A program made the position numbers and the translations under genes. A stretch of 64,000 nucleotides of DNA from a virus, in the UHGV virus genome UHGV-1364441. One strand, 5' to 3'. Positions 5,757 to 54,120 of this stretch are shown here, in pieces. The notes beneath the pieces were generated by a model. It did not search any database. It was given only the letters and a program-made list of their open reading frames with translations, and was not told where the DNA came from. Within the stretch, counting starts at the first letter, position 1. Each line of letters starts with the position of its first letter.

Positions 5757-6501
5757 AGAGCACCCCCTTATTCGCTTCGAAAACTGCCTTTGCGAATCCA
5801 TGTGGAGTAGCACTTCGAAAATTAGCCCTGTCAGGCCCTGGTGGCGCGGCATGGATTCTGTTATCTGGCTTGCCTAATGATTCGTCCATTAGGGCATCAG
5901 GCATGACAAAGCCCTGGCCGCTCCAGAGGCATGTTTTTTTGGTGTAGTTATCTTCCTGACAATATGCAGTGAAGAAGTAAGGGTGAAAGATGTGATCTGG
6001 CTTACGCCAGAATGTCGATATTTTGCTGACCGGATTTTCAATCATGTACGGACAACCGATCATCTTTGCAATGTCATAACACTGCCAGACAACCTGCATT
6101 GCTTTGAACTGGAAAACCGGATCTTTATTAGCCTTGTCCGAAAACCAGCGCGCGCCGGAAACAGCCAGGTCAGTACACGGTGGGAACCCGGCCAGAAACA
6201 CGATGCGCTGCAAATTCTTACGGAGAAAAGCGTATACTTCATCGCTATCGATGATCGCACTAATACGCGTCAGAACGGCACCTGATTGCATCCGCTCGTC
6301 ACTGGTCGATAAGTGCTGTGGATCGACGATAGCGGCATCGACACCGTATTCCAGCCAGGGGGCAACCATTGCCCCCGTAAAATCACAAAGACTCACAACA
6401 AGCGGTCGGTTATTATCGTTCTGCTTCACCGCCAATGGCCTCCACCAGCGCGTTAAACAGTGCAGATAATTCGCCCGTAAAGAGCACGAAATCAGCATCA
6501 A
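5749..6501 (-). CDS. DNA cytosine-C5 methyltransferase-like protein (compact, ~250 aa)
   Basis: AGFPPC (PCQ-like catalytic Cys motif) and ENP (ENV-like) motifs; much shorter than canonical Dcm, so function uncertain; 5' end overlaps the rdgC 3' end. Confidence 0.5.
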
Positions 6502-24592: not shown

Positions 24593-24849
24593 TGGATGTA
24601 AAAGAGAAGGTTTTGCAGGTGATGCGTTCCCGGGCTGCCCTGCAAGATAAAGCTCTCGGCGGGGAATATCCATTCAGGATGGCAACCTGGAATTTGCGGT
24701 TGGCAATGGAGAAGGAATTTCCTGATGAAGAATGGCGCTCGGCAGATTTGCGCAAAATTCTTATGGAGCTGGCTAAAGACGGAACAGTATCCAAAGATAC
24801 CCATGCCAGCCGGATTGGTCAGGCGGTATGGAGACTGGAGGTGAGGTAA
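24589..24849 (+). CDS. Hypothetical protein (86 aa)
   Basis: ATGA-coupled start. Confidence 0.4.
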   Translation: MMDVKEKVLQVMRSRAALQDKALGGEYPFRMATWNLRLAMEKEFPDEEWRSADLRKILMELAKDGTVSKDTHASRIGQAVWRLEVR

Positions 24850-25130
24850 TGGCTAACCTGCAACTTGCCGTCAAAGGTGAATACTTCGATGACATGATTC
24901 GCGGGGAGAAAACGGAAGAGTATCGCCTGTGTAATGGCTACTGGAATAAGCGAATCATGTTCCGGGAATATGACCGCCTGATTATCACAAAGGGATATCC
25001 GAAGCGCGACGATTCCAGTCGCAGAATAGACGTCCCGTATAACGGATATGAAATCAAGACAATCACACATCCGCACTTCGGTGATAAACCGGTAAAGGTG
25101 TACGCGATAAAGGTGAATATCAATGGCTAA
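24849..25130 (+). CDS. Hypothetical protein (93 aa)
   Basis: TAATG-coupled start at MANLQLAVKGE. Confidence 0.4.
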   Translation: MANLQLAVKGEYFDDMIRGEKTEEYRLCNGYWNKRIMFREYDRLIITKGYPKRDDSSRRIDVPYNGYEIKTITHPHFGDKPVKVYAIKVNING

Positions 25131-25575
25131 ATTTCAAAGAGCTATTATTTTTCTGGCTATGTTATCAGCCAGTCATTTATCCCACGCGTCAGTTATTGCC
25201 GCTGGAGCGGCGGCAACAGCGGCGGCAACAGCGGCGGCAACAGCAGCGGCAACAGCAGCGACCACGGCGGCAGTAAATGCTTCTATCGCCAGCGAGCAAG
25301 CGCGGCGTGCTGCAACCAATGCTTCCGCAAACACCACCACGGTATCAGTCACACAATCAAAACCGAATATAGGCTTTGTTACTTGCGGAAAGAGGAATAG
25401 CGAAATGGTTGGTTCTCTTGGTTGTGTAATGTGGCAAGAGGACGATAGACCTGAAATCCCGTGGAACTCATGGCCTGGTTACATTCTTGGTAAGAAGATA
25501 CCCACCAGCTATGAAGTAAATGCTATTTCATTCGACCAATATAACGGTGTTGCAACGGTGTATTTTCTGTATTAA
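25123..25575 (+). CDS. Secreted protein with Ala/Thr repeat (AAAT)n
   Basis: Signal peptide then AAATAAATAAATAAAT encoded by a 12-bp tandem repeat. Confidence 0.5.
   Translation: MAKFQRAIIFLAMLSASHLSHASVIAAGAAATAAATAAATAAATAATTAAVNASIASEQARRAATNASANTTTVSVTQSKPNIGFVTCGKRNSEMVGSLGCVMWQEDDRPEIPWNSWPGYILGKKIPTSYEVNAISFDQYNGVATVYFLY
25207..25260 (+). repeat. Tandem 12-bp repeat GCGGCGGCAACA x3 plus GCAGCGGCAACA and a partial unit
   Basis: Read directly inside the 25123-25575 CDS. Confidence 0.7.
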
Positions 25576-25587
25576 CACGGAGTAATT

Positions 25588-25881
25588 ATGTGGCGTGGTA
25601 ATAGTCATGGCAGAAGCCAGATGATACTTACCGAATATACGTTAGACCACAAAACCAATAAATCACGCTCAGTATATTTGCTTCGGCACAATAGCCGCGT
25701 AAGGAATACCGTGCTGGAGCAAAATCTGACCGTTGAAATGGATAATTTTGGGAACTTCAAGCCAACAATAGCGCTTGATGATTTTCCGCGTGGTTTAAGC
25801 GAAAGAGAAGCAATGCTTAAATTAGCAGAATGGCTACAGAGATTAAGTATTGCTATTGAAGATAACTGGAGCAATCCGTAA
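25588..25881 (+). CDS. Hypothetical protein (97 aa)
   Basis: ORF with downstream coupled small ORF. Confidence 0.4.
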   Translation: MWRGNSHGRSQMILTEYTLDHKTNKSRSVYLLRHNSRVRNTVLEQNLTVEMDNFGNFKPTIALDDFPRGLSEREAMLKLAEWLQRLSIAIEDNWSNP

Positions 25882-26039
25882 TGAAAAATAAAAAGTTTTG
25901 GTCTACGTTTTTATTTGTCTGTGTTTGTGGCTTTTTTGTTGCTTTAGCTGGTGGCGTAGAATGGGGAACGGAGAACTGCGGCGTAATGGTTGGTGACACC
26001 TTATTACTCGCGGGCATGTTAGCTTTTATTCGTTCATGA
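25881..26039 (+). CDS. Small membrane protein, 52 aa (MKNKKFWSTFLFVCVCGFFVALAGG...), not in ORF track
   Basis: Own translation; TAATG overlap with upstream stop. Confidence 0.35.
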   Translation: MKNKKFWSTFLFVCVCGFFVALAGGVEWGTENCGVMVGDTLLLAGMLAFIRS

Positions 26040-26121: not shown

Positions 26122-26496
26122 ATGATGACATTCAAACATTTTCTTGACCGTCCATTATGGGCGGCAGCCGCAGGCTATGACTTTAATTATATGGATTGCA
26201 TGTCTTATACCGCCAATGCATACGACCATTCCTTCAGTCTGCTGTTTAATTCTTTAAGAATATTGCCGCAAACAGAAGTTGGAGAGCTTCATTTATGGCT
26301 ATTGGGCTTTATCGCGGCTGGAGTTGGTATTGCTGTATGGCCTTTTATTTTCTGGCTGGTGGCTGTTGTAGTGTGGTTTAAGTGCAAGGCATACCGGAAT
26401 AAGTATTTCTTAGGTGATGGAATGACTGATATTGCCAAAAGGAACATTGAAAATTGGACCAAAGAATGCGAAAAGAAATGGAGCAACAAGAAATGA
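26122..26496 (+). CDS. Membrane protein
   Basis: Hydrophobic segment LHLWLLGFIAAGVGIAVWPFIFWLVAVVVWF. Confidence 0.45.
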   Translation: MMTFKHFLDRPLWAAAAGYDFNYMDCMSYTANAYDHSFSLLFNSLRILPQTEVGELHLWLLGFIAAGVGIAVWPFIFWLVAVVVWFKCKAYRNKYFLGDGMTDIAKRNIENWTKECEKKWSNKK

Positions 26497-27248: not shown

Positions 27249-27521
27249 TTGTATATGTTGCATAGAGTTTTATGGAAAAGCGTTATTGTCGGCGCGATCT
27301 TGGCTATGTCTGGGTGTGCTATGGTGCAATACAATGACGGAGAAAAGGTTAGCATCCAGTCAGATGGTTGGTATGGCCTGGATAGCCTGCAAAAAACAGC
27401 GGATAAAGCCTGCCAGCAATACGGAAAGTCTAAAGCCGTATATCAGCATAGTGCTAACGCTAATCCTCATCTTGCGCCCGGAACAGGCGTTCAGAATACC
27501 ATCTGGAAATGTGAGCCTTAA
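27249..27521 (+). CDS. Small lipoprotein
   Basis: Signal peptide with lipobox-like LAMSGC. Confidence 0.5.
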
Positions 27522-27523
27522 AT

Positions 27524-27775
27524 ATGAGCGACTGGAATATTGCAGCTAAAAGTCAGGAAGAACGGGATAAGGTTAACGTTGATCTGGCTGCCAGCGGTGT
27601 GGCGTACAAAGAGCGATTGAACATACCTGTCATAGCTGAACAGGTAGCCCGCGAGCAACCAGAGAATCTGCGCACCTATTTCATGGAACGGCTACGGCAC
27701 TACCGGCAGTTAAGCCTCCAGTTGCCAAAAGGGAGCGATCCGGTGTATCAGAACGAGGATGCACCAAAAAAATAA
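27524..27775 (+). CDS. Hypothetical protein (83 aa)
   Basis: ORF directly after the lipoprotein gene. Confidence 0.4.
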
Positions 27776-27898: not shown

Positions 27899-28288
27899 AT
27901 GGGCTTCCCTTCTCCTGCGGCGGATTATGCAGAGAGCCGCATTTCTCTTGATCAGCAACTAATCAGACATCCTTCCGCGACCTACTTCATGCGGGCGGCA
28001 GACAGCCATCACCGTGAGGGAATATTGCAAGGTGCTTTGCTGGTGGTTGATTCCTCACTTACTCCGGTTGATGGTTCACTGCTTATATGCGCTATGGAGG
28101 GTGAATATCGCATAAAGAGATACAGGAAATATCCGCGCCAGCACCTGGAGGATTTAAGCACCGGGAAGAAAGAGGCGTTACCAGTAGATGACGATGGATG
28201 CACGGGCAGTAATGCTGTTTTTGGTGTGATCACTTATGTCATTAATGATGCCAGAAGTGGGGAGTTTGATTATAGACCTGTGATTTAA
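27899..28288 (+). CDS. humD: UmuD'-like protein (P1 HumD type, S24 LexA/UmuD fold)
   Basis: FPSPAADY ... SATYF ... LLVVDS ... EYRIKR pattern parallel to UmuD without the N-terminal cleaved tail. Confidence 0.7.
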   Translation: MGFPSPAADYAESRISLDQQLIRHPSATYFMRAADSHHREGILQGALLVVDSSLTPVDGSLLICAMEGEYRIKRYRKYPRQHLEDLSTGKKEALPVDDDGCTGSNAVFGVITYVINDARSGEFDYRPVI

Positions 28289-39519: not shown

Positions 39520-39595
39520 TGGTGGCCCCTACCGGACTTGAACCGGTGACCGTGCGATTATGAGTCGCCAGCTCTAACCACTGAGCTAAAGGGCC
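39520..39595 (-). tRNA. tRNA-Ile2 (anticodon CAU, lysidine type) or tRNA-Met-like
   Basis: Manual fold: 7-bp acceptor stem, CCA encoded, anticodon loop CUCAUAA; close to E. coli ileX; one mismatch at the base of the anticodon stem. Confidence 0.75.
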
Positions 39596-39604
39596 AGATT
39601 ACTG

Positions 39605-39733
39605 TTAATTCCGCTTACGCTTTTTGCCAGAACCGCGTAAGGCTTTTGCCGCTTGCTCGATCCCATATGCAACCACCAGCAGAAATAAAAATGTCCAACC
39701 AGGGTTCTTATCGGCAAAGGCCCAAAAATCCAT
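39605..39733 (-). CDS. Possible 42-aa membrane peptide (MDFWAFADKNPGWTFLFLLVVAYGIEQAAKALRGSGKKRKRN)
   Basis: Own translation; one TM helix plus basic tail; weak RBS. Confidence 0.25.
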   Translation of the reverse strand: MDFWAFADKNPGWTFLFLLVVAYGIEQAAKALRGSGKKRKRN

Positions 39734-40007
39734 CACTTGCAGCTACCTTTTAAGACAAAACGCCATTGCTGTTAGATTGCGGTGCCTGGTGCCTCCAGGT
39801 GACGTTAACCAGTTAACAATTAACGCCGGGATGTTTGACTTCACTATTGAGGAAAATTGTTTTAACTGTTCCGCGTGCGCTTAGCCGCATTCACCGCAAT
39901 GGTAAGAGCACTTGGCTGGCTGGGCGGCGATGACGCCTGTACGCATTTGGTGATCCGGTTCTGCTTCCGGCATTCGCTTAATTAGCCAAATACTCTTAAC
40001 GTTGCGC

Positions 40008-40094
40008 TGGCGGAGAGTAATGGAATCGAACCATCATCGCTTGCGCAATGGGACGGTTTTCAAGACCGCTTGAGCACCATGCTCCCTACTCTCC
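40008..40094 (-). tRNA. tRNA-Ser (anticodon UGA), type II with long variable arm
   Basis: Manual fold: 7-bp acceptor, 3-bp D-stem, anticodon loop CUUGAAA, variable-arm hairpin with GCAA loop, T-loop TTCGATT, CCA encoded. Confidence 0.65.
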
Positions 40095-40478
40095 GGCCGT
40101 TGTGGTGGCCGGTACTGAATCTCCGGCATACGGTGCAGCCAATTAGGACTACGGACGATCACCGCTCGCGAAAGGGAAGGTTTGCGGCCGCATTTCCCTA
40201 ACATCCAAGAAAGCTATCGCATCAGTCTGCGAATCCACCACAACGTTGAGAACACTGGTTGTCACGCTGCAACGCAACATTTATTCGTAGATTGGGATAT
40301 GACCCCGTTACGTCAGTGTTCTCAACGTTGTAGTACCGGTTACGGTTCCGGCCAGGCCTCTTCCTCAACGGGGTATTCTCCATACGGACTACCGTTTATT
40401 GGTCGTTCCTGCGGTTTATGTTGTGAAGCCAGATGCTTATCTTCTGGTTGCTTCAAAGAGCTGCACTTCATCACAACG

Positions 40479-40552
40479 GTAAGGGTACTTCGTAGGGATT
40501 CGAACCCTCTGCCAAGCACGGCGATCTCCGACGTCGCAAAATACCCTTACCT
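40479..40552 (-). other. tRNA-like fragment or structured element (T-arm-like GGGTTCGAATCCC inside a 10-bp closing stem)
   Basis: Does not fold as a canonical cloverleaf (no D or anticodon arm in register, no CCA). Confidence 0.3.
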
Positions 40553-40559
40553 GTTGTGT

Positions 40560-40635
40560 TGGTGCCGATTAACGGACTCGAACCGCTGACATCCTGCTTA
40601 CAAGGCAGGCGCTCTACCAACTGAGCTAAACCGGC
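40560..40635 (-). tRNA. tRNA-Thr (anticodon UGU)
   Basis: Manual fold: canonical cloverleaf, anticodon loop CUUGUAA, CCA encoded. Confidence 0.85.
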
Positions 40636-40637
40636 AT

Positions 40638-40714
40638 TGGCGATGGTGGGTGGATTCGAACCACCGACCGACAGCTTAGAAGGCTGCTGCTCTATCCTAC
40701 TGAGCTACACCATC
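40638..40714 (-). tRNA. tRNA-Arg (anticodon UCU)
   Basis: Manual fold: canonical cloverleaf, anticodon loop CUUCUAA, CCA encoded; 2 nt from tRNA-Thr. Confidence 0.85.
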
Positions 40715-53553: not shown

Positions 53554-53975
53554 CAGTGTGCCTCCGCAATTCCGGAATTGGTAATATTGCGATACCAAGG
53601 ATTAGTGTTTGGTTGTGATGAAGAAGAGAAACGGCCAGTAAGGACGCCATGTTGATCAGGGATCAGAGAACGGGCTTCTTTTTCAGTTGCGGCAATTGCG
53701 AAGTGATCACAGTGTTTTTGCAGGGAGTGGAAACGCCAGATAAATTCCGGGCGCGAGCAAGGATTGGCATTAACCATAGTTACGGCCTCATTCGTAGGTT
53801 TAACAACCTGCGCCCCGCTGCTAAACGGGTGGCAGGACGTGACGGGGTTAGCAGACTGGCACGAATGAAACCAGCAGGCCGAAGCCTCCCCATCACGCCC
53901 CACCATAATTCGGGCGTAACGTGGTTTTACGGACACAAAAATACCGCAATATCGGATATCTGCGGTTGTCCGCAT
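53553..53975 (-). CDS. Hypothetical protein upstream of the Rha-like gene
   Basis: Coupled ORF; an antisense ORF 53649-53993 competes, so the coding frame is uncertain. Confidence 0.3.
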   Translation of the reverse strand: MRTTADIRYCGIFVSVKPRYARIMVGRDGEASACWFHSCQSANPVTSCHPFSSGAQVVKPTNEAVTMVNANPCSRPEFIWRFHSLQKHCDHFAIAATEKEARSLIPDQHGVLTGRFSSSSQPNTNPWYRNITNSGIAEAH

Positions 53976-54120
53976 TCGTATTCAGGCTGCTAAACCCGGT
54001 CGCAGAATTTGCTACGACGACATGAATATAAGCCTGAAAACATGGAAGATCAACTAAAAATTTCAGCAATGGATGACTTCAGTCGATGATGCAGATCATA
54101 CATTCCGATTTAGAAACGGC

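What the first reader, a model, noticed from the sequence alone, without database searches (positions are those of the whole stretch)
25123..25575. Secreted protein gene containing a 12-bp tandem repeat
The signal-peptide protein encodes (AAAT)n from GCGGCGGCAACA repeated at least four times. In-frame 12-bp tandem repeats can expand or contract by slippage, altering protein length without frameshifting.
Basis: seen in the sequence. Interest (0 to 1): 0.45.

Follow-up and report, generated by a model that had tools for sequence, protein, structure and literature searches.

The report
Length-variable repeat in phage-plasmid exported protein
A small exported protein of unknown function, carried on a D6/P1-type phage-plasmid of Escherichia, contains a real 12-base in-frame repeat whose copy number runs from 1 to 4 among otherwise near-identical relatives, but it lies in a spacer that tolerates any length, so it is most likely an ordinary slippage polymorphism rather than a switch.

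Summary
ORF 25123-25575 (+) encodes a 150-aa protein with a Sec-type signal peptide. It contains GCGGCGGCAACA three times exactly, a fourth unit with one mismatch (25207-25254) and a degenerate fifth unit, giving (AAAT)4-AATT. This is the strongest tandem repeat in the window.

Related D6-like phage-plasmids carry 1, 2 or 3 units on the same haplotype. Two metagenome contigs match the window's gene at every base except one 12-bp unit. A sister lineage independently duplicated a 21-bp unit in the same tract. The window's 4-unit allele is the longest of its series that I found.

The protein belongs to a narrow, uncharacterised phage family (phrog_8805; no Pfam). Its layout is signal peptide, then an Ala/Thr-rich spacer of 20-63 aa, then a conserved two-cysteine domain of 65-73 aa. 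The repeat lies in the spacer, which varies freely in length and sequence across the family.

The best reading is a near-neutral coding repeat polymorphism produced by replication slippage, not a phase-variation device. Protein function is unknown; I infer a role in the cell envelope. In passing, sibling alleles without the repeat have a lipobox cysteine that the window's allele lacks. Interest is low to moderate.

The parts
25123..25575 (+). Gene for a 150-aa exported protein of family phrog_8805, stop codon included
   Evidence: ORF list. phrog_8805 match at E=9e-46. No Pfam family. Substitutions concentrate at codon position 3.
25110..25115 (+). Shine-Dalgarno sequence AAGGTG, 7 nt before the ATG. 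The start codon overlaps the stop of the upstream ASCH-annotated gene (24828/24849-25130).
   Evidence: Read directly from the sequence. Annotation of relatives.
25123..25188 (+). Predicted Sec signal peptide, residues 1-22, with cleavage after S-H-A. Residue 17 is Ser (AGT, 25171-25173) where sibling alleles have Cys in a lipobox.
   Evidence: Sequence inspection. The Ala at -1 is invariant in family alignments. Lipobox rule check.
25207..25254 (+). Four tandem 12-bp units: three exact GCGGCGGCAACA and one GCAGCGGCAACA, encoding (AAAT)4
25255..25266 (+). Degenerate fifth unit GCAGCGACCACG (AATT), present in all repeat-type alleles
25234..25245 (+). The 12 bp (GCGGCAACAGCA in this register) that the window has in excess of the 3-unit alleles. 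Placement within the array is arbitrary.
   Evidence: MAFFT alignment of 11 alleles.
25189..25371 (+). Spacer of the mature protein (residues 23-83), Ala/Thr-rich and predicted helical; this is the length-variable module of the family
   Evidence: AlphaFold2 gives a helix over residues 2-67 with pLDDT about 85 for residues 31-50. Spacer is 20-63 aa across the family.
25372..25572 (+). Conserved C-terminal domain (residues 84-150) with invariant Cys88 (25384-25386) and Cys101 (25423-25425) and the motifs GFVTCGK, SLGC, WPGY.LG and VATVYF.Y
   Evidence: Alignments A3 and A4. Profile search.

Best explanation
This is a genuine coding variable-number tandem repeat. The gene is an accessory gene inside a long co-directional operon of a D6-like (P1-related) phage-plasmid. 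It encodes a small protein that is most likely exported by Sec and cleaved after Ala22. The mature protein has an Ala/Thr-rich, probably helical spacer followed by a conserved two-cysteine domain of about 67 aa. The 12-bp units GCGGCGGCAACA lie in the spacer. They are identical at the DNA level, so they are recent duplications and not an old protein motif. During replication the nascent strand misaligns by one unit (RecA-independent slipped-strand mispairing). This adds or removes four residues (AAAT) without changing the frame. Because the spacer has no fixed length or sequence in the family, such alleles are tolerated and drift. The result is a near-neutral length polymorphism and not a programmed switch. 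Shown here: the repeat, the coding frame, the allele series on one haplotype, the independent 21-bp expansion, and the variability of the spacer. Inferred: the slippage mechanism, the export and cleavage, the helical state, and neutrality. Protein function is unknown. From its export signal, the conserved cysteine pair and its position among accessory genes of temperate and virulent enterobacterial phages, I infer a periplasmic or envelope role, for example modifying or shielding an envelope component during infection or lysogeny.
For: The repeat is real and far above chance. Gene lengths among relatives are 453, 441, 429 and 417 bp. The DNA allele series is n=1 (L004, L007), n=2 (L003, L009), n=3 (L001, L002, L011) and n=4 in the window. 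On one identical 88-aa C-terminal background, n takes the values 1, 2, 3 and 4; on a second background a 7-aa unit is present in 0, 1 or 2 extra copies. L024 and L035 equal the window's gene apart from 12 bp, and L009 (n=2) differs by one further SNP. The E. marmotae lineage has a 21-bp duplication bounded by GCGGCA direct repeats. The spacer is 20-63 aa while the domain is 65-73 aa across the family. Alleles without seed repeats in their DNA (134- and 133-aa types, more than 850 contigs) show no length variation, so the DNA substrate alone explains where variation occurs. The single-stranded DNA fold of the tract is unremarkable (z = -0.64), and there is no Rfam feature at the locus.
Against: Neutrality is inferred and was not measured. 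The tract is fairly hydrophobic (Kyte-Doolittle 19-residue mean up to 1.56, against 1.65 for the signal peptide) and predicted helical, so its length could matter for membrane association, reach or oligomerisation. Contig counts are redundant samples and not independent events. No read data were available, so the actual slippage rate is unknown. The C-terminal domain model is poor (pLDDT 36-63), so nothing constrains the function.
Confidence: 0.7

Rival explanations
1. Adaptive spacer tuning. The Ala/Thr helix acts as a ruler or tether that sets how far the C-terminal domain reaches in the periplasm, or how it oligomerises. Gain or loss of units (about 0.6 nm per unit if helical) would then be selected, for instance in an arms race with other phages or with host envelope variants.
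For: Two independent expansions with different units (12 bp and 21 bp) hit the same tract. The tract is predicted helical with fair confidence. All expanded alleles belong to the Ser17 lineage, which lacks the lipobox found in sibling alleles, so anchoring and spacer length could be linked. One family member gives a weak, sub-threshold hit to the Lpp/OprI alanine-zipper model (P0084, E=0.007, 16.8 bits against a cut-off of 43).
Against: Both expansions are explained by the local DNA, which has short GC-rich direct repeats. The Ser17 association is a single linked lineage and therefore one event. Spacer length and sequence are unconstrained across the family. The alanine-zipper hit is far below threshold and absent for the window's protein. 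No phenotype is known.
Confidence: 0.17
2. Programmed high-frequency variation. The locus is a contingency locus that generates subpopulations with different protein lengths within a single culture.
For: The locus is an in-frame repeat in an exported protein, the class of gene where such loci occur. Several alleles exist on one haplotype.
Against: There are only 1-4 units of a 12-bp repeat; by general knowledge of VNTR behaviour, short arrays mutate slowly. The frame is preserved, so there is no on/off switching. Most sampled elements carry n=1 or n=2, and large clonal groups share one allele. There is no promoter or regulatory placement. Variation within a sample could not be tested.
Confidence: 0.06
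3. Artefact or non-gene. The repeat number is an assembly error, or the ORF is a chance reading frame through GC-rich DNA, possibly belonging to the opposite strand.
For: A 59-aa shadow ORF exists on the minus strand (25173-25352). The exact 150-aa protein is absent from the large protein collection.
Against: The array is only 48-60 bp, shorter than any read. Discrete alleles recur in many independent assemblies. Substitutions show the codon-position-3 bias of the + frame. Homologues are conserved in unrelated phages. The collection also lacks the n=3 allele that is present in RefSeq plasmids, so absence from it is uninformative.
Confidence: 0.02

Closest known systems
Coding VNTR (MLVA-type) loci of E. 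coli and Salmonella: short in-frame tandem repeats inside ORFs that vary by slipped-strand mispairing
   Same: It has head-to-tail identical units whose length is a multiple of three. Copy number differs among otherwise near-identical sequences, and the change alters protein length only.
   Different: It lies on a phage-plasmid and not the chromosome. The array is very short (1-4 units), so the expected mutation rate is low (general knowledge, not measured here). It is not part of any typing scheme I found.
Phase-variable contingency loci, such as simple-sequence repeats in Neisseria or Haemophilus surface genes
   Same: It is a repeat in a gene for an exported protein and is subject to slippage.
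   Different: The unit is 12 bp, so the frame is always kept and there is no on/off switching. It is not in a promoter. High-frequency switching has not been shown.
Low-complexity Ala-rich linkers and stalks of envelope proteins, such as Ala/Pro linkers, or the Lpp alanine-zipper whose length sets periplasmic width
   Same: It is an Ala-rich, probably helical segment between a targeting signal and a folded domain, and its length varies among homologues.
   Different: There is no significant match to the Lpp/OprI model. No oligomerisation or anchoring has been shown, and the window's allele lacks a lipobox.
Small periplasmic or lipoprotein accessory proteins of phages that act on the envelope, such as P1 Sim, T4 Spackle, and the Cor and Llp receptor-blocking lipoproteins (from my own knowledge)
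   Same: It is a small, signal-peptide-bearing protein encoded among accessory genes of temperate and virulent enterobacterial phages. Sibling alleles fit a lipobox rule.
   Different: No sequence or fold similarity to any of them was detected. No exclusion phenotype is known. This is an analogy by context only.

Membership tests
Coding variable-number tandem repeat (slippage locus) | Two or more head-to-tail copies of the same unit, beyond chance | tested here: met
   TRF score 97 with 5.5 copies. There are 3 exact units and 1 near-exact unit; 0 of 100 shuffles reach the count.
Coding variable-number tandem repeat (slippage locus) | Unit length is a multiple of 3 and lies inside a real ORF | tested here: met
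   A 12-bp unit inside ORF 25123-25575. Coding is supported by the codon-position bias.
Coding variable-number tandem repeat (slippage locus) | Copy number differs among closely related sequences | tested here: met
   n = 1, 2, 3 and 4 on one protein background. L024 and L035 differ from the window's gene by the unit alone.
Phase-variable contingency locus | A change in repeat number switches expression on or off, by frameshift or promoter spacing | tested here: not met
   The 12-bp unit keeps the frame. All alleles are full-length ORFs, and the repeat is not in a promoter.
Phase-variable contingency locus | High-frequency variation within a clonal population | not testable with these tools
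   No read-level data were available.
Sec / signal peptidase I substrate | N-terminal basic region, hydrophobic core and small residues at -3 and -1 | tested here: met
   MAKFQR / AIIFLAMLSA / SHLSHA|S. The Ala at -1 is invariant in family alignments. This was judged by inspection only; no predictor or experiment was used.
Bacterial lipoprotein | Lipobox [LVI][ASTVI][GAS]C at the end of the signal peptide | tested here: not met
   The window has LSAS (Ser17). Sibling alleles P0009 and P0065 have LSAC and pass a PROSITE-style rule.
phrog_8805 (phage protein family of unknown function) | Significant match to the family profile over the conserved domain | tested here: met
   E=9.1e-46 over residues 29-150. 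The Mu-like homologue P0035 scores E=7.5e-81.
Lpp/OprI alanine-zipper lipoproteins | Match to NCBIfam NF040598 above its cut-off | tested here: not met
   There is no hit for the window's protein. P0084 scores 16.8 bits against a cut-off of 43.
Known anti-phage defence proteins (PADLOC) | Match to any PADLOC model | tested here: not met
   No families matched the gene, six neighbouring genes or P0035.

The most novel reading that the evidence does not exclude
The Ala/Thr tract is a selectable ruler. In this reading the family is a phage-encoded periplasmic effector, for example for superinfection exclusion or envelope remodelling. Its reach or oligomeric state is set by spacer length. The D6-like lineage toggles between a lipid-anchored form (Cys17, fixed short spacer) and a soluble form (Ser17) whose spacer is free to grow by slippage. 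This would give phage-plasmids a cheap way to diversify an envelope-acting protein.
Probability: 0.1. Interest if true: 0.5.

Novelty: new member of a known kind. Interest (0 to 1): 0.25.

Why it matters
As it stands, this is a tidy, well-documented example of slippage polymorphism in a phage-plasmid accessory gene. It could serve as a fine-scale marker for tracking D6-like phage-plasmids, which circulate widely in Escherichia, Salmonella and Shigella. The more interesting residue is the protein family itself. It is a narrow exported family with two conserved cysteines and no known function or fold. It recurs in accessory regions of D6-like plasmid prophages, Mu-like prophages and virulent phages, and it has lipobox and non-lipobox allelic forms. 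If the spacer length or the anchor change has a phenotype, that would point to a new phage function acting on the envelope. None of the evidence here requires that.

Tried and rejected
Pfam, NCBIfam and PADLOC gave no significant family for the protein. PHROGs gave only phrog_8805, of unknown function.

A profile search of PDB sequences returned nothing; the best hit was E=1.1.

Two AlphaFold2 runs on shallow alignments of 16 and 14 sequences gave mean pLDDT of 54 and 59. Only the N-terminal helix was modelled with confidence. Foldseek searches with the second model therefore returned only a family member in BFVD and nothing in the PDB. The afdb50 library was unavailable.

An exact 36-bp search for three or more units in viral and metagenome contigs found 25 loci. 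Only L019, L024 and L035 are this gene, all with n=3. The rest are unrelated low-complexity DNA.

Exact look-ups of hypothetical alleles (n=0, 5, 6 and 7 on the window's background; n=0, 2, 3 and 4 on the sister background) found nothing. The same look-up also missed the real n=3 RefSeq allele, so this negative result is uninformative.

I looked for an RNA element or an unusual DNA hairpin at the tract and found none.

Literature searches found no report of this gene or polymorphism.

I rejected the minus-strand shadow ORF 25173-25352 as a gene because of the codon-position bias and the homologues.

Full report
**What is there**

The ORF at 25123-25575 on the + strand encodes 150 aa. AAGGTG lies 7 nt upstream of its ATG. 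The ATG overlaps the stop codon of the preceding gene by 8 nt, and the next gene starts 13 nt after the stop codon. The gene therefore sits inside a tightly packed co-directional operon. Tandem Repeats Finder reports a period-12 array at 25206-25271 with 5.5 copies and score 97, the strongest repeat in the window. GCGGCGGCAACA occurs exactly at 25207, 25219 and 25231, and with one mismatch at 25243. None of 100 shuffles reaches that count. A degenerate unit GCAGCGACCACG follows. The translation is AAG-(AAAT)4-AATT.

**What replicon this is**

Positions 36-58 kb of the window are 93.5% identical to phage D6 over 99% of their length. The window also carries the P1-type C4 antisense RNA and its targets, several tRNAs, a homologue of hot (DNA polymerase III theta) and a humD-like S24 peptidase just downstream of the locus. 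The nearest records are non-mobilizable plasmids of about 90 kb (rep_cluster_1704) from Escherichia, Salmonella and Shigella. The window is a D6-like phage-plasmid. D6 itself lacks the gene. In 5,426 complete E. coli genomes the gene occurs in 33, always on plasmids.

**Is it a gene?**

Differences between the window and divergent alleles fall mostly on codon position 3 of the + frame (23-25 of 35-37 differences). Homologues are found in unrelated phages. The 59-aa ORF on the opposite strand is a shadow of the GC-rich tract. The array is 73% G+C, against 48% for the window.

**Copy-number variation**

- The gene is 453 bp here and 441, 429 or 417 bp in relatives.
- The DNA shows a clean series: one unit in L004 and L007, two in L003 and L009, three in L001, L002 and L011, and four in the window.
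- After removing the tract, one identical 88-aa C-terminal background carries n = 1, 2, 3 and 4.
- Metagenome contigs L024 and L035 match the window's gene at every base except one 12-bp unit. L009 (n=2) differs by one additional SNP.
- The window's extra unit reads GCGGCAACAGCA, a duplication of the last unit in a shifted register, as slippage would produce.
- In E. marmotae plasmids the same tract carries an independent duplication of a 21-bp unit (AATTAAT), bounded by GCGGCA. Protein variants show one or two extra copies of it.
- Summed over the listed cluster members, contig counts are about 486 for n=1, 491 for n=2 and 61 for n=3. These are redundant samples and not independent events.
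- I found no other n=4 and no longer allele of this 12-bp series in PLSDB, the E. coli genomes, or the viral and metagenome contigs. The exact-sequence look-up proved unreliable for such negatives.
- Some protein length differences in the databases are start-codon calls and not repeat changes. I therefore scored the tract itself.

**The protein**

It has no Pfam, NCBIfam or PADLOC family. It matches phrog_8805, of unknown function. A profile search of 1.84 billion representative proteins found only 14 clusters, so the family is narrow.

- All members share one layout: a signal peptide ending in a small-x-Ala site, a spacer, and a conserved domain.
- The domain has the motifs GFVTCGK, SLGC, WPGY.LG and VATVYF.Y and two invariant cysteines.
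- The spacer ranges from 20 to 63 aa and is not conserved in sequence. The domain stays at 65-73 aa.
- AlphaFold2 predicts the Ala/Thr tract as a helix with pLDDT about 85, but does not model the domain with confidence. The fold searches were therefore uninformative, and no solved relative exists by sequence.

The family sits among accessory genes of three further kinds of phage:

- Mu-like prophages, between the B transposition protein and gemA/mor.
- 45-kb Escherichia and Klebsiella phages, next to the terminase gene.
- The virulent phage Av-05 of the Vequintavirinae.

**How it most likely works**

The units are identical in DNA, so they are recent duplications. The alleles differ by whole units on one haplotype, and a second unit size has expanded in the same tract. 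Sibling alleles whose DNA lacks seed repeats show no length variation in more than 850 contigs. Replication slippage between short GC-rich direct repeats explains all of this.

The spacer is the one part of the protein that varies freely across the family, so such changes are probably tolerated and nearly neutral. If the tract is helical, each unit would add about 0.6 nm. I cannot exclude that this matters, because the tract is fairly hydrophobic and function is unknown.

The 12-bp unit keeps the frame, so this is not an on/off switch. Whether the rate is high enough to create heterogeneity within a culture cannot be tested without reads.

**Comparison with known systems**

The locus works like a coding VNTR and meets each defining feature I could test. 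It fails the defining feature of a phase-variable contingency locus, because there is no frameshift or promoter effect. The window's allele is not a lipoprotein, since Ser17 replaces the lipobox cysteine found in sibling alleles. Resemblance to phage periplasmic exclusion proteins rests on context only.

**Verdict**

The finding is an ordinary kind of polymorphism in an uncharacterised gene: a new member of a known kind, of low to moderate interest.

Noticed in passing
window 25171-25173 (codon 17); compare L006, L008, L010, P0009, P0065: Sibling alleles without the repeat read FLAMLSAC and pass a PROSITE-style lipobox rule, whereas every repeat-type allele, including the window's, has Ser17 (AGT instead of TGT). 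Co-segregation is 38/38 against 39/39, but these are linked lineages, so it counts as one event. The family may therefore exist in lipid-anchored and soluble forms.
   Followed up: partly
L005 (E. marmotae plasmid NZ_CP099353.1), locus 1624-2061; proteins P0079-P0082: An independent duplication of a 21-bp unit (AATTAAT), bounded by GCGGCA direct repeats, occurs in the same tract. Variants carry one or two extra copies, giving proteins of 145 and 152 aa.
   Followed up: yes
window about 25413-25440: There is a recombination breakpoint inside the gene. L003 and L019 carry the window-type 5' half and the sister-type 3' half, so alleles are shuffled by recombination as well as by slippage.
   Followed up: partly
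window 25881-26039, 26122-26496, 27249-27521: A run of small predicted envelope proteins lies downstream in the same operon. They are a 52-aa protein with hydrophobic segments, a 124-aa membrane protein (phrog_2638) and a 90-aa protein with an MSGC lipobox (phrog_7757). All are of unknown function and sit just before hot (27524-27775) and a humD-like S24 peptidase (27899-28288).
   Followed up: no
L012-L014 (E. coli chromosomes), gene at 6001-6414; L015-L017: The same protein family (phrog_8805) is present in Mu-like prophages between the transposition genes and gemA/mor, in 45-kb Escherichia and Klebsiella phages beside the terminase gene, and in the virulent phage Av-05. This is a scattered distribution typical of a mobile accessory gene.
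   Followed up: partly
window 53825-53910 and 53979-54031 (-); 39520-40714 (-): The P1-type C4 antisense RNA and its a1/b1 targets, plus four tRNA genes (Met, Ser, Thr, Arg), are consistent with a P1/D6-type immunity region and tRNA cluster.
   Followed up: no
window 24828-25130: The upstream gene is annotated as ASCH domain-containing in RefSeq relatives, but it gave no Pfam hit at E<=0.01 in my scan. A segment of about 120-130 bp of it is 92-96% identical to lambdoid and P22-like phages such as HK022, ST104 and phiV10, which shows the mosaic origin of this accessory region.
   Followed up: no
protein collection look-ups: The exact-sequence collection lacks the pure 3-unit allele that is present in RefSeq plasmids and in metagenome contigs. 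Negative exact look-ups should therefore not be read as absence.
   Followed up: yes
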